From: an uncultured virus (IMG/VR IMGVR_UViG_3300017772_000002)
Lineage: Duplodnaviria > Heunggongvirae > Uroviricota > Caudoviricetes
Length of the DNA: 64,000 bases
Reading direction: 5' to 3' (one strand)
IMG/VR virus record: IMGVR_UViG_3300017772_000002
Position numbers and translations under genes: made by a program. This document shows positions 56,943 through 61,410 of this stretch, piece by piece. The notes beneath the pieces are model-generated. The model was not told the origin of the DNA and did not search any database. It worked only from the letters and a program-made list of their open reading frames with translations. Position 1 is the first letter of the stretch. Each line of letters starts with the position of its first letter.

Positions 56943-57317
56943 TTAATGATAGGTTGGTTCAATGTCTTCTTCATCGTCTGTATCATCATCTAATGCACGC
57001 TCACCTTCGAGTTCATAATTATGTTTACTAAATTCACCACGTATGAGCTCTTGACAAGAATATTTAATGTATGATTCCTTTGTCTCTTCAACTACTTCTG
57101 TATGGTTAATCACAAACCTTTTCATGATCTTAAACACCTTTTTATCGGAAAACGGAAACCAGTCACCAAACGTAAACATTCCATCTGATGATACCTGCAC
57201 GACCGCAGGTCGTTCTACGATAAACGCATGCTCATTTGAGCTTTGAACATAGCAAATAATATCTTCGCTATTTGTAAGTTTAAAATGTCTTATATCGACT
57301 TCTTTAATAGTTTCCAT
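56943..57317 (-). CDS. conserved T4-like protein (Sm-like)
   Basis: FKLTNSEDII; position between uvsW and gp55. Confidence 0.65.
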   Translation of the reverse strand: METIKEVDIRHFKLTNSEDIICYVQSSNEHAFIVERPAVVQVSSDGMFTFGDWFPFSDKKVFKIMKRFVINHTEVVEETKESYIKYSCQELIRGEFSKHNYELEGERALDDDTDDEEDIEPTYH

Positions 57318-58826
57318 TTATATATTTATATCATGAACTTTATAGTCAAATTTTTCTTTGCTATAAATCCTGATCCTTTCAGCAGCATGTTGAAGCGTGT
57401 AATTTTTCTTTGATTTCCAGTGTAAGTCATCAGCTATATCGTATACCTTAGTATCTATACCATCAGCTGACTTTCTTAATCCTCTCCCGATGCTTTGTAA
57501 AACCCGAATTTGCGACTTACTAGGTGAAGCAAAGATAATGTTATGTAGACGTTTAATATTAATACCTGTAGAAAAAGTGCCCATACTAGCGACAATGATC
57601 GCGTCATCTTGCTTCTCTGTAATCGCTCGTATCTCTTCCCTCGTATCAACATCGGTTTCACCTGATACATAAAACAATCTCCTCGTATTTCTAGGCAATT
57701 CATCAAACTTTTTCTGTAATAAATCATGAAGTGGCTTACCATGTTTATCTACAAACTGAAATAGTATCAATGTATTACCATTTTGATCCATAGCCAAATT
57801 AGCTATAAAATTATTTCTTGGTCCGTATTTTACTATAAAATCAATCTCTTCTTGATATTTCATTTTCGAAACTAACTTACAGTACTCATCGGTATATTTC
57901 AATAACAAGACAAATATGTCTAGTTGTGATAAAGAATTTTCTTCAATCAACTCTTTAGTTGTGGTCACTTTAAATACCGGACCAAATAAGCCTTCTAATA
58001 CTAACTGATGAGTTTGTGATCCATCTAAAGTACCAGTAGTACCAATTCTGTATTTAGCATTAACGCATTTTTCAAGTATTGACGTCAAAGATTTAGCTTT
58101 AAAGTTGTGTGCCTCATCACCAACAACCATACCAAAATCTTGAAACCAATTACTGTTTAGCTTATAAACTGACTGCCATGTTGTAATAATCACTCTTTGT
58201 TTTATATTATATTTTTCTTTACCTGCATAAATTTTATGACAATTTTTGCTAACATCCCAATCATCTTTTGTCGAGTAATCACCAAAATCAGAATACATTT
58301 GCTCAACTAATGATGTCGTTGGCACAATTAACATAACATTACCATCATTCATATCTAAGTAATATCTAATTGCTAAATATATGATTAAACTCTTTCCTGA
58401 AGCTGTAGGGCTTAAAAGCAAAGATTTTTTATCTGATAGCGCCCTCGAGAGTGCATCAAGTTGATAGGGCCGGGGTGTTATACCTACTCCGTTCACAGAG
58501 AGTGACAGACCGCTCAGGAACGTCTCTATATCGTGTAACTCTTCTGTATCCGGCCTTCCGTACTTAGAATTATCCTCTGTAATGAGTTCATACCCTCTCG
58601 CATCGGCAAATTCCTTTAAATATTTGAATAAACCACCATATATCACCTTTTTTCTTAAGTCAAATAGGCGTATCTTCCCATCCCACATGCGATTTTTATA
58701 CGCTGGCATGAATTTATACCCTGGAACATAAAAACAGAAGTGCTCTGTCAATTCCATCTCTATCCCCGGTTCGGTCACAACATGTAGAAAAACTTCGTTC
58801 TTCTTTTTAACAGTAATTTTTTCCAT
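57318..58826 (-). CDS. uvsW: SF2 helicase UvsW
   Basis: PTASGKS, DEAH, TGT, QSIGRGLR. Confidence 0.96.
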   Translation of the reverse strand: MEKITVKKKNEVFLHVVTEPGIEMELTEHFCFYVPGYKFMPAYKNRMWDGKIRLFDLRKKVIYGGLFKYLKEFADARGYELITEDNSKYGRPDTEELHDIETFLSGLSLSVNGVGITPRPYQLDALSRALSDKKSLLLSPTASGKSLIIYLAIRYYLDMNDGNVMLIVPTTSLVEQMYSDFGDYSTKDDWDVSKNCHKIYAGKEKYNIKQRVIITTWQSVYKLNSNWFQDFGMVVGDEAHNFKAKSLTSILEKCVNAKYRIGTTGTLDGSQTHQLVLEGLFGPVFKVTTTKELIEENSLSQLDIFVLLLKYTDEYCKLVSKMKYQEEIDFIVKYGPRNNFIANLAMDQNGNTLILFQFVDKHGKPLHDLLQKKFDELPRNTRRLFYVSGETDVDTREEIRAITEKQDDAIIVASMGTFSTGINIKRLHNIIFASPSKSQIRVLQSIGRGLRKSADGIDTKVYDIADDLHWKSKKNYTLQHAAERIRIYSKEKFDYKVHDINI

Positions 58827-59378: not shown

Positions 59379-59837
59379 TTAACTAATATCAAAGTATGTA
59401 TACTTTAATGTAACATCTGCTTGTAAGTATTCTACTTCAGTTTGTTGAGTAGAAAATTCAACAGCCGATAGACTTGTTGGAAAGCAATCTTTAAACGTTA
59501 CTTCTTTTGTAACATTATTGTGACTACTTAATATAGCAAGAGTTGCATCTGATTTTTGCCCCTCACCTTTTTGTATAACATCATGCATCCAGTTATACAT
59601 CTCAATATAATTTTCCATATCTTCGGTAATATTAAATCTAATATTTAATTCGCCAAAAGTCATACGATCGCCAGTCATACCCATATTTGATGTCTTATAT
59701 GGTAATGGAACTTCTGATATAGATAAATCTGGAAGCGTGACAGCAGTACAAAAATACTCAATATTAGAATATTTTGTTGAATCTATTTTGAATTGAAACC
59801 CTACAGGGCTTAAAAAGTTTTTATTTAAAGTAGCCAT
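59379..59837 (-). CDS. gp3: tail completion/tube terminator (gp3-like)
   Basis: NFLSPVGF, EDMENY, KSDATL, FP.SLS; start MATLN after late promoter 59843-59850. Confidence 0.88.
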   Translation of the reverse strand: MATLNKNFLSPVGFQFKIDSTKYSNIEYFCTAVTLPDLSISEVPLPYKTSNMGMTGDRMTFGELNIRFNITEDMENYIEMYNWMHDVIQKGEGQKSDATLAILSSHNNVTKEVTFKDCFPTSLSAVEFSTQQTEVEYLQADVTLKYTYFDIS

Positions 59838-59869
59838 ATATCTATTTATACAAGTTTGAAAGTTAAATT

Positions 59870-59964
59870 GAAGCAATGTGCGGTATCTTCCTCCGCGTAC
59901 CCGCAACCAAGGCAGGATCTTAGTCTCTTCGTAACCTTTGTCACTTCTAGATCAACACTGCTTC
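59870..59964 (-). ncRNA. candidate structured ncRNA (multibranch), late-expressed
   Basis: 10-bp closing stem plus three internal hairpins; TATAAATA immediately upstream at 59970-59977. Confidence 0.6.
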
Positions 59965-59982
59965 TATATTATTTATACACAT

Positions 59983-60010
59983 AAAAAAAGGGACTCCGAA
60001 GAGTCCCTTT
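59983..60010 (-). terminator. gp23 intrinsic terminator
   Basis: GGGACUC-UUCG-GAGUCCC-UUUUUUU. Confidence 0.92.
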
Positions 60011-60036
60011 AAAGTACAAGACTATCTAATTAAAGA

Positions 60037-61410
60037 TTAGCTTGATGCAGGCTGAGTCATAATACCGTCTACTCTAAAGATTCTAAAGTATGGGTTAGAT
60101 CTGTCCGCACCAACTGTACCGTCAGTAGCTACAAATGGGTTAGCAACCATGCCGTATCTAGTTTTGAAACCGATTCTTGGCTGGAAGTCTTCCTCACCGA
60201 TCGCTTTAACCATTGTTAAAGGAACGTATGGGCAGTAGAATACACCTGCGTCATATGGAGTAGTACCTCTGTAACCTACACAAACGTAGTCCTGGTTAGT
60301 ACCACCAGCATACGGATCAACGTATACTTTGAACTTACCATTAAGAACACCAGCAAAAGTATTACCAGTATCATCTACGTTTAGGTTAGTTGCCAATGCT
60401 GGGCTATAGTCAAGCATACCAGAAGCAGCAAGTACTGAAGCAACGTCAGAAGAACAGATTACATAGTTACCTTTTCCTCTTCTTGTTTCTTTAGCAATTA
60501 CATTAGCTTCTCTTTCGATTTGAATAATCAAACCTTTAGCTTTTTCAGCCAACCATCTGCCGTCTGTGTCAGTAGCCATGTTAAAGATACCTTTAATAGC
60601 GTTAGAAGCTTGACCAGCACCTAGCTTAGCAGTTCTGTTTACAGTTCTAACAACTTCTCTGTTGATTTCCGCAAGGATTTCAGAAGAAAGGATGTTAGCA
60701 AGCTCGCCTTCAGCGTCTAGACCGTGGATTGCTTTAAGATCTTGAGCAAGTTCCATAGTGTATTCAGCTTTAAGAGCTCTTGACTTAGCAGTTACTGTAG
60801 CTTTCTCGATTGAGAATGCCATTTCACCGAATGAACCGCCTGAACCACCAGTACCTAGAGCTTCAGAAGCAGCTGTAGACATACCAGCTGAGTAATCAGA
60901 AACGATTTCACCAGCAGTTTCGTTTGTGCCTAAGTTATTATCACCGTTATCAACAGCTGTTTCTAGACCAGAAGGACCTGCTTCTTGAGCTGTACCATGG
61001 CCAGAGAATGCAGTGTTTGCTTCGTCCATGAAAGCTTCAGTTTTTGTAACTGTGCCGTCACCAGCAACATTTACATACTTAGACTTCATAGCAAAGATTA
61101 GACCAGTAGGACCAGTCATAGGCTGTACACCAGCGATATCGTAAGCGATAAGGTTTGGCATTGCACGTCTTACCAATGAGATAAGAACGGGATTAAAACC
61201 AGCTACTTCAGCGCCAGTTGCGTTATGAGGAGCGTCTTCTCCAAGGAAGGTTCCTGATTTAGCAACAGCATCTTCTCTAGCTGCGATTTCTTGGTTTTCA
61301 AGAAGTCTAGCTGTAACAGCTGCTTTATGACTATCTTGAATTGTTGGAACATCTGTGTGCTCGAGAACCGGGCTCCACTTTTCCATTAAGTTTTTGTCTG
61401 CGTTAAACAT
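60037..61410 (-). CDS. gp23: major capsid protein
   Basis: LVRRAMPNLIAYD, VQPMTGPTGLIFAM, KSRALKAEY, FQPRIGFKTRYG. Confidence 0.98.
   Translation of the reverse strand: MFNADKNLMEKWSPVLEHTDVPTIQDSHKAAVTARLLENQEIAAREDAVAKSGTFLGEDAPHNATGAEVAGFNPVLISLVRRAMPNLIAYDIAGVQPMTGPTGLIFAMKSKYVNVAGDGTVTKTEAFMDEANTAFSGHGTAQEAGPSGLETAVDNGDNNLGTNETAGEIVSDYSAGMSTAASEALGTGGSGGSFGEMAFSIEKATVTAKSRALKAEYTMELAQDLKAIHGLDAEGELANILSSEILAEINREVVRTVNRTAKLGAGQASNAIKGIFNMATDTDGRWLAEKAKGLIIQIEREANVIAKETRRGKGNYVICSSDVASVLAASGMLDYSPALATNLNVDDTGNTFAGVLNGKFKVYVDPYAGGTNQDYVCVGYRGTTPYDAGVFYCPYVPLTMVKAIGEEDFQPRIGFKTRYGMVANPFVATDGTVGADRSNPYFRIFRVDGIMTQPASS

What the first reader, a model, noticed from the sequence alone, without database searches (positions are those of the whole stretch)
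59865..59977. Structured ~95-nt ncRNA with its own late promoter between gp23 and gp3
Seen: directly after the gp23 terminator lies TATAAATA, then GAAGCAGUGU...ACAUUGCUUC (10-bp closing stem). The stem encloses GAUCU-AG...CU-A-AGAUC with an apical GUGAC-AAAG-GUUAC hairpin, then CCUGC...GCGGG and GCGG...CCGC hairpins, forming a four-way junction. It is GC-rich relative to its surroundings and is not a canonical tRNA. gp3 has a separate late promoter (59843-59850), so this element is not needed as the gp3 leader. Inference: a discrete late RNA that could be packaged, act as a decoy or anti-defence RNA, or be ribozyme-like.
Basis: partly seen in the sequence, partly recalled or inferred. Interest (0 to 1): 0.8.

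Follow-up and report, generated by a model that had tools for sequence, protein, structure and literature searches.

The report
Stand-alone copy of phage tmRNA-spacer RNA
A small, tightly folded RNA between the capsid and tail genes of this marine T4-like phage is real and conserved, and it is a free-standing copy of an RNA module that related phages carry inside the cut-out spacer of their ribosome-rescue (tmRNA) genes; what it does is still unknown.

Summary
On the minus strand, window 59870-59964 is a 95-nt four-way-junction RNA. It starts 5 nt after a TATAAATA box (59970-59977), downstream of the gp23 terminator and upstream of gp3's own TATAAATA.

In 18 homologues (16 distinct), 98.1% of pair cells are standard pairs, 18 of 30 pairs show changes on both sides, and 0 of 500 shuffles reach this. 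Rfam 15, ARAGORN and GenBank phages give no match.

The new result is its kinship. The same 75-nt core sits in the excised intervening sequence of permuted two-piece tmRNA genes of uncultured marine phages (10 variants). It also sits once in a tmRNA leader, once after tRNA-Ala in a tRNA cluster, and once at the end of a long non-coding unit. Each copy is clamped by a closing stem of context-specific sequence.

Cultured relatives (Mosig, HTVC008M, Melnitz) have the tmRNA spacer stem without this core, and one lineage carries an internally deleted core. The core therefore looks dispensable for the tmRNA.

Best reading: an autonomous "passenger" RNA that works through its invariant internal loop. 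Function and transcript are unproven. It is a new RNA family of moderate-to-high interest.

The parts
59970..59977 (-). T4-type late-promoter box TATAAATA of the cassette. Predicted +1 is G59964, the first base of the closing stem.
   Evidence: Sequence read. All 16 of 16 TATAAATA in the window lie on the coding (minus) strand, and 8 of 16 are intergenic. Box geometry of -13 to -6 comes from passages of PMC2988020. The start site is inferred, not measured.
59870..59964 (-). The 95-nt four-way-junction RNA element (whole)
   Evidence: Fold z = -2.98. The covariance model R1 finds one hit in the window, 103.3 bits, E 1e-23.
59955..59964 (-). P1 5' strand (GAAGCAGUGU)
   Evidence: Pairs with 59870-59879. 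9 of 10 P1 pairs show changes on both sides across homologues.
59917..59952 (-). P2: basal stem with bulged A, invariant internal loop (AA opposite GAAGAGA), and apical hairpin GUGAC-AAAG-GUUAC
   Evidence: Alignment columns 13-48. Nearly all loop and basal-stem bases are invariant in 18 sequences. One basal pair covaries (U-A 12, A-U 4) and one apical pair covaries (A-U 9, G-C 6).
59900..59916 (-). P3 hairpin CCUGC-CUUGGUU-GCGGG with a variable loop
   Evidence: 3 of 5 pairs have changes on both sides. Loop length and sequence vary.
59880..59896 (-). P4 hairpin GCGG-AGGAAGAUA-CCGC with a partly conserved loop (G75, A79, U80 invariant)
   Evidence: 4 of 4 pairs have changes on both sides. Invariant columns are listed.
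59870..59879 (-). P1 3' strand (ACAUUGCUUC)
59987..60010 (-). gp23 intrinsic terminator, the left border of the cassette slot
   Evidence: 10-pair stem, 5 G-C pairs, T-run.
59843..59850 (-). Proximal TATAAATA of gp3, five bases before its ATG; the right border of the cassette slot
   Evidence: The same box-N5-ATG arrangement is seen in most related gp3 loci. A contig of a relative replaces 59858-59966 with 257 other letters (table 5).
59379..59837 (-). Downstream gene, the gp3-position tail protein (152 aa)
   Evidence: Pfam Phage_T4_gp19, E 5.4e-08. Synteny is gp23 - this gene - UvsY - UvsW. Annotated as tail completion or tail tube protein in HTVC008M and Mosig.
60037..61410 (-). Upstream gene gp23, major capsid protein (457 aa)
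   Evidence: Pfam Gp23, E 1.9e-143.

Best explanation
The element is a free-standing copy, with its own T4-type late promoter, of a portable RNA module of about 75 nt (P2-P3-P4 around a four-way junction). Marine T4-like phages carry this module in several non-coding transcription units.

In most relatives the module is the apical insert of the end-to-end hairpin that forms the excised intervening sequence of their permuted two-piece tmRNA genes. It also occurs in a tmRNA leader, after a tRNA in a tRNA cluster, and here in the swappable cassette slot between gp23 and gp3.

Proposed working:
- Transcription from TATAAATA starts at the first base of the closing stem P1, so the RNA has no single-stranded 5' end (inferred).
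- In the tmRNA and tRNA contexts the same closed junction is set free as a by-product of tRNA-type end processing (inferred).
- The resulting compact RNA of about 95 nt acts on its own, most likely by presenting its invariant P2 internal loop and P4 loop to a protein or RNA partner (inferred).
- It is not part of tmRNA maturation itself.

Shown: structure, homology, contexts and dispensability for the tmRNA gene. Not shown: the transcript, its ends, any partner, any phenotype.
For: 1. Structure under selection. In 18 sequences (16 distinct), 98.1% of 480 pair cells are standard pairs and 18 of 30 pairs have changes on both sides. 0 of 500 shuffles reach this, and sliding the 3' partners by 1-3 columns drops pairing to 28-37%. 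RNAalifold independently gives P1, the apical part of P2, P3 and P4.

2. Selection on specific bases. Stems P1, P3 and P4 vary with compensation while 37 columns, mostly unpaired, are invariant.

3. Portability.
- Ten variants are tmRNA spacers. ARAGORN calls a permuted tmRNA in L063, L070, L072, L075 and L079.
- Rfam tmRNA_permuted matches L082, L072, L063, L070 and L085 and treats the element as an unmodelled insertion.
- For L067, L083, L094 and L097 the tmRNA flanks were only read by eye.
- One copy follows tRNA-Ala-CCA in a cluster of six tRNAs (L086).
- One is a tmRNA leader that starts five bases after an AATAAATA box (L183).
- One ends a long non-coding unit that has a sigma-70-like promoter and a terminator (L089).
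- Five are in the gp23-gp3 slot.

4. P1 belongs to the context and the core is exchangeable. The window and L092 have identical P1 but cores only 83% alike, and L021's core is 92% like the L063 tmRNA spacer.

5. Not needed for tmRNA.
- Mosig, HTVC008M and Melnitz all have permuted tmRNAs with the same CCA-to-GGGG end-to-end stem but other interiors, and none matches the model.
- L174, L178 and L180 carry an L063-type tmRNA with a 33-nt internal deletion of the core, and ARAGORN still calls that gene.

6. Promoter geometry. The box-to-P1 spacing is 4-5 nt in all five slot copies and in L183. The T4 box spans -13 to -6 (PMC2988020, passages).

7. Phage-restricted as far as the patterns can see. 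The strict pattern finds 0 places in one genome each of 185,579 species. Of 14 places found with a looser pattern, 0 are confirmed by the model.
Against: - No transcript, 5' end or 3' end has been seen. The RNA-library runs were contigs only and say nothing about the element.
- There is no terminator after the element, so it could simply remain the 5' leader of a gp3 mRNA.
- No partner is known, and no co-occurring gene could be tested because the contigs are fragments.
- The family is phylogenetically shallow and its copies recombine, so some of the invariance could reflect recent spread rather than constraint.
- Only 4 of 59 related gp3 loci carry it (4 of the 50 that have enough upstream DNA), so it is not essential to this phage group.
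- The 3' arm of P1 was placed by me where pairing was best. This favours P1 pairing, although the unsupervised alignment A1 gives the same register in 15 of 17 rows.
Confidence: 0.45

Rival explanations
1. It is a cis-acting end-forming or stabilising element. The closed junction at the extreme 5' end protects the long late transcript that runs into gp3. Alternatively it works as a tRNA-shaped 'punctuation mark' at which host tRNA-processing or double-strand nucleases cut, defining the ends of the neighbouring RNA: tmRNA pieces, tRNAs or gp3 mRNA.
For: - The predicted +1 is the first base of P1, so no free 5' tail remains.
- No terminator lies between the element and gp3.
- The linker pattern (2 / 0 / 3 / 0 nt, four arms) has cloverleaf topology.
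- Every other context is one where RNA ends must be made: after CCA of a tmRNA acceptor piece or of tRNA-Ala, or before a tmRNA.
- P1 is 13-16 bp in nine of the ten tmRNA spacer copies (L085's longest unbroken run is 4 bp), 14 bp in the tRNA-cluster copy L086, and 9-10 bp in the five gp23-gp3 slot copies and in L089. This is what trimming of the outer helix would leave.
Against: - Related tmRNAs are made without the core, and one lineage has deleted it.
- gp3 has its own proximal box, and 46 of 50 informative relatives lack the element.
- The slot holds a small lipoprotein-like ORF or nothing in other phages.
- A plain hairpin would suffice for 5' protection, which leaves the invariant internal loop unexplained.
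- There is no tRNA signal in ARAGORN or Rfam.
Confidence: 0.2
2. It is a new class of small self-cleaving ribozyme. It splits the precursor it sits in, speeding the separation of tmRNA pieces or tRNAs and giving the gp3 transcript a 5'-OH end.
For: - The size (about 95 nt), the multi-stem junction, the many invariant unpaired bases beside freely covarying stems, and phage intergenic locations fit the general signature of small ribozymes. That signature is recalled, not tested.
- Conservation pattern.
- All contexts are places where a cut would be harmless or useful.
Against: - No match to any ribozyme family among the 4227 Rfam models, even at E up to 10.
- No cleavage-site feature could be identified.
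- The tmRNA genes of relatives work without it.
- No biochemical data exist.
Confidence: 0.1
3. It is a functionless or selfish filler: a spacer insert copied into the gp23-gp3 slot by recombination, persisting because the slot and the spacer tolerate any content.
For: - The slot between the two TATAAATA boxes is a swap site. Relatives hold a small lipoprotein-like ORF, other small ORFs, or nothing, and a contig of a relative replaces 59858-59966 with 257 other letters.
- tmRNA spacer interiors differ completely between related phages.
- One lineage has a decayed copy.
- Cores are exchanged between copies.
- Earlier notes of this scan describe swappable spacer inserts in other phages. These are leads only.
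Against: - Neutral filler would not keep 98% pairing through 18 doubly changed pairs while holding 37 columns invariant.
- The slot copies kept P1 by compensatory changes of their own, for example G-U to C-G at column 7/89.
- Five diverged slot variants exist, with gp3 protein identity down to 69%.
Confidence: 0.12
4. It encodes a small peptide (ORF 59846-59944 minus, 32 aa, GTG start), or it is a degenerate tRNA or tmRNA gene.
For: A 32-aa ORF is listed mechanically. The same GTG opens a 46-aa ORF in L089.
Against: - One-base length differences in the P2 and P3 loops among homologues shift the frame. In L070-type copies a stop follows after seven codons (read from the alignment).
- No Shine-Dalgarno sequence is present.
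- ARAGORN and Rfam find no tRNA or tmRNA here.
- The flanks hold no CCA end and no GGGG start.
Confidence: 0.02

Closest known systems
Intervening sequence (IVS) of circularly permuted two-piece tmRNA genes (Rfam RF04321 tmRNA_permuted, RF01849 alpha_tmRNA; described in PMC11915505, passages read)
   Same: - Ten homologues of the element are such spacers. They lie between the CCA end of the acceptor piece and the GGGG start of the coding piece.
- An end-to-end closing helix is present in all copies, including this one.
   Different: - The window copy has no tmRNA pieces around it and has its own promoter.
- The Rfam consensus spacer is a short A/U-rich loop of about 23 positions, and the element is aligned to it as an unmodelled insertion.
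- The passages I read say only that the spacer is absent from mature tmRNA. They mention single cases with a tRNA-Ala or a repetitive element inside, not a conserved structured family.
tmRNA genes of cultured Kyanoviridae myophages Melnitz, Mosig and HTVC008M (PMC9004378, passages read)
   Same: - Same phage group and gene order: gp23, tail protein, UvsY.
- Same permuted alpha-type tmRNA.
- Same spacer stem design, starting at CCA-UAAACAC in Melnitz and Mosig and at a related CCA-AAACCAC in HTVC008M.
   Different: - Their spacer interiors are a plain loop (Mosig), a small hairpin (HTVC008M) or a stretch of about 130 nt with an SD-ATG ORF (Melnitz).
- None matches model R1, and none has the element before gp3.
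- In the passages I read, the paper discusses a glutamine riboswitch in the 3' domain of ssrA, not the spacer.
T4 stable RNAs species 1 and 2 (rnaC, rnaD) in the T4 tRNA cluster
   Same: They are small structured phage RNAs of unknown function made alongside tRNAs, annotated in NC_000866. One homologue of the element (L086) sits in a phage tRNA cluster directly after tRNA-Ala.
   Different: There is no detectable similarity. With filters off, model R1 gives only noise in the T4 region (best 12 bits, E 0.15) and nothing over rnaC or rnaD.
tRNA cloverleaf and tRNA-like processing signals
   Same: Four arms with linkers of 2 / 0 / 3 / 0 nt, a topology like acceptor, D, anticodon and T arms.
   Different: - No T-loop or D-loop signature, and no CCA.
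- The loop in the 'anticodon' position varies in length (4-7 nt) and sequence.
- ARAGORN and the Rfam tRNA model are silent.

Membership tests
IVS of permuted two-piece tmRNA genes | Lies between the 3' CCA of the acceptor piece and the 5' end of the coding piece of one tmRNA gene | tested here: not met
   Window: no tmRNA by ARAGORN or Rfam gathering scan. The flanks are a promoter box and the gp3 upstream region. The feature is met by ten homologues elsewhere.
IVS of permuted two-piece tmRNA genes | End-to-end helix that brings the two ends of the spacer together | tested here: met
   P1 is 10 bp in the window. 9 of 10 pairs covary. P1 is 13-16 bp in nine of the ten tmRNA copies, where it includes the CA of CCA; in L085 the longest unbroken run is 4 bp.
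IVS of permuted two-piece tmRNA genes | Sequence or structure homology of the interior to known spacers | tested here: met
   Model R1 scores 100-108 bits on the spacer copies and 103.3 bits on the window. Core identity is 65-92%.
tRNA | Cloverleaf with T-loop and D-loop, anticodon loop and acceptor end, recognised by ARAGORN or Rfam RF00005 | tested here: not met
Known small self-cleaving ribozymes (all Rfam 15 classes) | Match to the family covariance model | tested here: not met
   No ribozyme family among the 11 weak matches at E up to 10 in 59600-60200.
Known small self-cleaving ribozymes (all Rfam 15 classes) | Site-specific self-cleavage | not testable with these tools
   Needs an in vitro assay.
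T4 species 1 / species 2 RNAs (rnaC, rnaD) | Similarity to the T4 genes | tested here: not met
   No R1 match over L100 4909-5172 with filters off.
T4-type late promoter | TATAAATA box about one helical turn upstream of the start | tested here: met
   An exact box is at 59970-59977. 16 of 16 boxes in the window are on the coding strand. The total count is not above shuffles (16 against a mean of 12), so the argument rests on strand and position.
T4-type late promoter | Transcription starts there late in infection | not testable with these tools
   RNA runs were available only as contigs.
Riboswitch aptamers with a four-way junction (e.g. SAM-I) or glutamine riboswitch | Match to the Rfam model | tested here: not met
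   The resemblance in architecture is recalled only.

The most novel reading that the evidence does not exclude
The invariant core is an RNA machine in its own right. It would be either a new class of self-cleaving ribozyme or a tRNA-shaped cleavage signal that these phages insert wherever an RNA must be cut: tmRNA halves, tRNA clusters, late mRNAs. Alternatively it is a trans-acting decoy that captures a host RNA-processing or defence protein late in infection of the ocean's most abundant bacteria.
Probability: 0.15. Interest if true: 0.85.

Novelty: new variant of a known kind. Interest (0 to 1): 0.6.

Why it matters
- Spacers of two-piece tmRNA genes are treated as discarded filler. Here one spacer insert behaves as a conserved, structured, portable RNA that phages also express on its own from a late promoter. 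This suggests that at least some 'waste' from tmRNA and tRNA processing is a way to make functional small RNAs.
- The carriers are relatives of the myophages of SAR11 and OM43, which are very abundant marine hosts, and no cultured phage has the element yet.
- It is a clean candidate for a new Rfam family, and for biochemical tests of self-cleavage, nuclease recognition and protein binding.
- Its natural controls already exist: spacers without the core, and a spacer with an internally deleted core.

Tried and rejected
- **Rfam.** All 4227 families at E up to 10 on 59600-60200 gave only noise on the terminator, and no family covers the element. The gathering scan of the whole window found only tRNA-Arg.
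- **ARAGORN.** No tRNA or tmRNA at the element.
- **GenBank phages.** blastn against 50,697 records gave no match for the window element. An L070 spacer gave only three short chance matches.
- **T4 rnaC/rnaD.** No similarity.
- **Bacterial and archaeal genomes.** The strict pattern gave 0 places. The loose pattern gave 14 places, all rejected by the model.
- **Chance pattern hits.** L069, L076, L077, L078, L081 and L095 were dropped after reading them and after the model search.
- **RNA libraries.** 20 runs were listed and 4 laid, all as contigs.
  - One contig identical to the window covers 59464-59918 and stops inside the element. Its run is probably DNA.
  - No contig of the laid RNA libraries identical to the window covers the element. 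This says nothing about expression.
- **Co-occurrence with a tmRNA in the same genome.** Metagenome records are not held. The viral records reached are 6-12% complete fragments or lack both features. The window's own assembly is not held.
- **Coding reading.** Rejected by frame-breaking loop indels.
- **Loop-loop pairing.** I looked by eye for complementarity between the P2 apical loop, the P4 loop and the UAC linker and found none.
- **SD mimicry.** The SD-like GGAGG in the P4 loop is not conserved; L063 has GGCAG, L086 has GGCGG, and L085 and L183 have UGAGA.
- **Earlier scan notes.** Nothing by place or by sequence.
- **Literature searches.** None of the following showed a description of this motif in the listings or the passages I read:
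  - 'two-piece tmRNA' + 'intervening'
  - 'Melnitz' + 'tmRNA'
  - 'permuted tmRNA' + 'phage'
  - 'tmRNA' + 'intervening sequence' + 'phage' + 'structured'
  - 'pelagiphage' + 'noncoding RNA'
- **Supplements.** The supplementary tables of PMC9004378 and PMC11915505, which list phage tmRNAs, were not opened and could hold such spacers.

Full report
**What is there**

All genes in this part of the window are on the minus strand. The ORF at 60037-61410 is the major capsid protein gp23 (Pfam Gp23, E 1.9e-143). It is followed by a 152-aa tail protein in the gp3 position (59379-59837), then UvsY and UvsW. This is the gene order of marine T4-like myophages. The best DNA matches of the gp23 end are to phages of OM43, SAR11 and cyanobacteria.

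Between gp23 and gp3 the minus strand reads as follows:
- a strong intrinsic terminator at 59987-60010;
- TATAAATA at 59970-59977;
- five bases, then a 95-nt element at 59870-59964;
- 19 bases, then a second TATAAATA at 59843-59850;
- five bases, then the gp3 ATG.

**The observation**

As RNA, the minus strand folds into a four-way junction at -30 kcal/mol, z = -2.98, with 1 of 200 shuffles as good. The plus strand gives z = -1.02.

One outer pair of the second arm is better assigned to the third arm.

ARAGORN and Rfam see no tRNA, tmRNA or any other family here.

**Relatives in the same place**

Of 59 viral contigs that encode a relative of the gp3-position protein, model R1 finds the element upstream of the gene in 4: L001, L020, L021 and L042. 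L001 is identical to the window. Nine of the 59 have too little upstream DNA, so the count is 4 of 50 informative loci. A fifth variant came from a metagenome contig (L092).

In the other loci the space between the gp23 terminator and the gp3 box holds a small lipoprotein-like ORF, other small ORFs, or nothing. There is often a first TATAAATA right after the terminator.

A contig of a relative in a marine RNA-seq library replaces 59858-59966 with 257 other letters. The two late-promoter boxes therefore frame a cassette slot, and the cassette here is 'promoter plus RNA element'.

**Relatives in other places**

Pattern scans with the invariant core found the element in quite different settings (viral contigs; metagenome contigs).

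- **tmRNA spacers.** In ten distinct variants it is the interior of the intervening sequence of a circularly permuted two-piece tmRNA gene. The acceptor piece ends in CCA, the element follows, and the coding piece with its tag reading frame starts two bases after it.
  - ARAGORN calls a permuted tmRNA in L063, L070, L072, L075 and L079.
  - Rfam tmRNA_permuted matches L082, L072, L063, L070 and L085 at 76-112 bits and aligns the element as an unmodelled insertion in the spacer loop.
  - For L067, L083, L094 and L097 I only read the tmRNA ends in the flanks.
- **tRNA cluster.** In L086 the element follows tRNA-Ala-CCA by three bases, inside a cluster of six tRNAs.
- **tmRNA leader.** In L183 it starts five bases after an AATAAATA box and precedes a permuted tmRNA whose own spacer is of another kind.
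- **Long non-coding unit.** In L089 it ends a non-coding stretch of about 470 nt between a sigma-70-like promoter and a terminator.

**Structure and conservation**

On a MAFFT alignment of 18 copies (16 distinct rows), the five helices give 98.1% standard pairs in 480 cells. 18 of 30 pairs have changes on both sides: 9 of 10 in P1, 3 of 5 in P3, 4 of 4 in P4, and 1 each in the two parts of P2.

0 of 500 column shuffles reach these values. Sliding the 3' partners by one to three columns drops pairing to 28-37%. RNAalifold predicts P1, apical P2, P3 and P4 on its own.

I chose the 3' arm of P1 where pairing was best. This favours P1, but an unsupervised alignment with flanks puts it in the same register in 15 of 17 rows.

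37 columns are invariant. They cover most of the P2 internal loop and its flanking pairs, the UG and UA(C) linkers, and three bases of the P4 loop. In contrast, the P3 loop and the apical P2 loop vary in length and sequence.

The one-base length changes in those loops rule out a conserved reading frame.

**What the contexts say**

P1 belongs to the context and the core travels.
- The window and L092 share an identical P1 but have cores only 83% alike.
- L021's core is 92% like the tmRNA spacer of L063, while their P1 arms are 55% alike.

Three cultured relatives, Melnitz, Mosig and HTVC008M, all have permuted tmRNAs. Their spacer stems run from the CCA to the GGGG in the same way, but they enclose a plain loop, a small hairpin, or a stretch of about 130 nt with an SD-ATG ORF. 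None matches the model.

L174, L178 and L180 carry an L063-type tmRNA in which 33 nt of the core are deleted. This destroys the junction, yet ARAGORN still calls the gene.

The core is therefore an optional passenger of the spacer hairpin, not part of tmRNA maturation. Earlier notes of this scan describe swappable inserts and spare copies of tmRNA spacers in other phages. They agree with this picture but are unchecked leads.

**Promoter geometry**

All 16 TATAAATA in the window lie on the coding strand. The total number is not above chance in this A+T-rich DNA.

In T4 the box spans -13 to -6 (PMC2988020, passages). This puts +1 on G59964, the first base of P1. The spacing is 4-5 nt in all five slot copies and in L183.

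This is inference; no RNA ends were available.

**How it most likely works**

I take it to be an autonomous small RNA.
- It is made either directly from a late promoter with a fully paired 5' end, or as a by-product when host tRNA-type enzymes trim tmRNA pieces and tRNAs around it.
- It would act through its invariant loops on a partner that is still unknown.
- P1 is 13-16 bp in nine of the ten tmRNA spacer copies (L085's longest unbroken run is 4 bp), 14 bp in the tRNA-cluster copy L086, and 9-10 bp in the five gp23-gp3 slot copies and in L089. Trimming of the outer helix would yield the same species from each source.

Rival readings are a cis-acting 5' stabiliser or cleavage 'punctuation', a new self-cleaving ribozyme, and tolerated filler. 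The evidence weighs against each but excludes none.

**Comparison and novelty**

It works like, and is homologous to, a tmRNA intervening sequence. The window copy fails that family's defining feature, since it has no tmRNA around it.

It is not a tRNA, not any Rfam family, and not T4 rnaC or rnaD.

It was not found in one genome each of 185,579 bacterial and archaeal species by two patterns, nor in 50,697 GenBank phage records.

Five literature searches and the passages I read in PMC11915505 and PMC9004378 show no description of it. The supplements of these papers were not opened.

I rate it a new variant of a known kind: a conserved, portable, separately expressed spacer RNA.

Noticed in passing
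window 59837-59850 (-); also 57317-57330 (-): gp3 and a 124-aa ORF start exactly five bases after a TATAAATA box. With T4 geometry the transcript would begin at the A of the ATG, giving a leaderless mRNA. The same box-N5-ATG spacing recurs in most related gp3 loci.
   Followed up: partly
L002-L029, L047, L048, L059 (upstream of gp3): In many relatives the gp23-gp3 slot holds a small ORF with a lipoprotein-type signal (…LLAGC…) instead of the RNA element. L004 and L005 keep only its tail, and L031 and L033-L036 hold a short Trp-rich ORF. The slot is a cassette swap site framed by two late-promoter boxes.
   Followed up: partly
L089 230-735: A non-coding stretch of about 470 nt lies between a TTGACA-N17-TATAAT promoter and a terminator. 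The first 350 nt or so are unidentified (no Rfam match at E up to 0.01) and the element is at the 3' end. This may be a longer unknown RNA.
   Followed up: no
L085 (minus strand, about 170-365): This tmRNA gene has two spacer modules in tandem. A first hairpin with a different interior is followed by a short GGGCC…CCACCA remnant, then the four-way-junction element. It looks like a partial duplication of the permuted gene.
   Followed up: no
L123 1562-1700 (Melnitz MZ577097 tmRNA spacer): The Melnitz tmRNA spacer is about 130 nt long and contains GGAGAA-N5-ATG opening a short reading frame that runs into the coding piece. The published account places a glutamine riboswitch in the 3' domain, not in the spacer.
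   Followed up: no
L174, L178, L180 (tmRNA spacer): A natural 33-nt internal deletion of the element lies inside an otherwise intact-looking permuted tmRNA (tag ANDDNFAHGDYALAA). It is a ready-made negative control.
   Followed up: partly
L070, L072 upstream of the tmRNA: The tmRNA genes have a TTGACA-N17 sigma-70-like promoter whose -10 region overlaps a TATAAATA box. This suggests both early and late expression.
   Followed up: no
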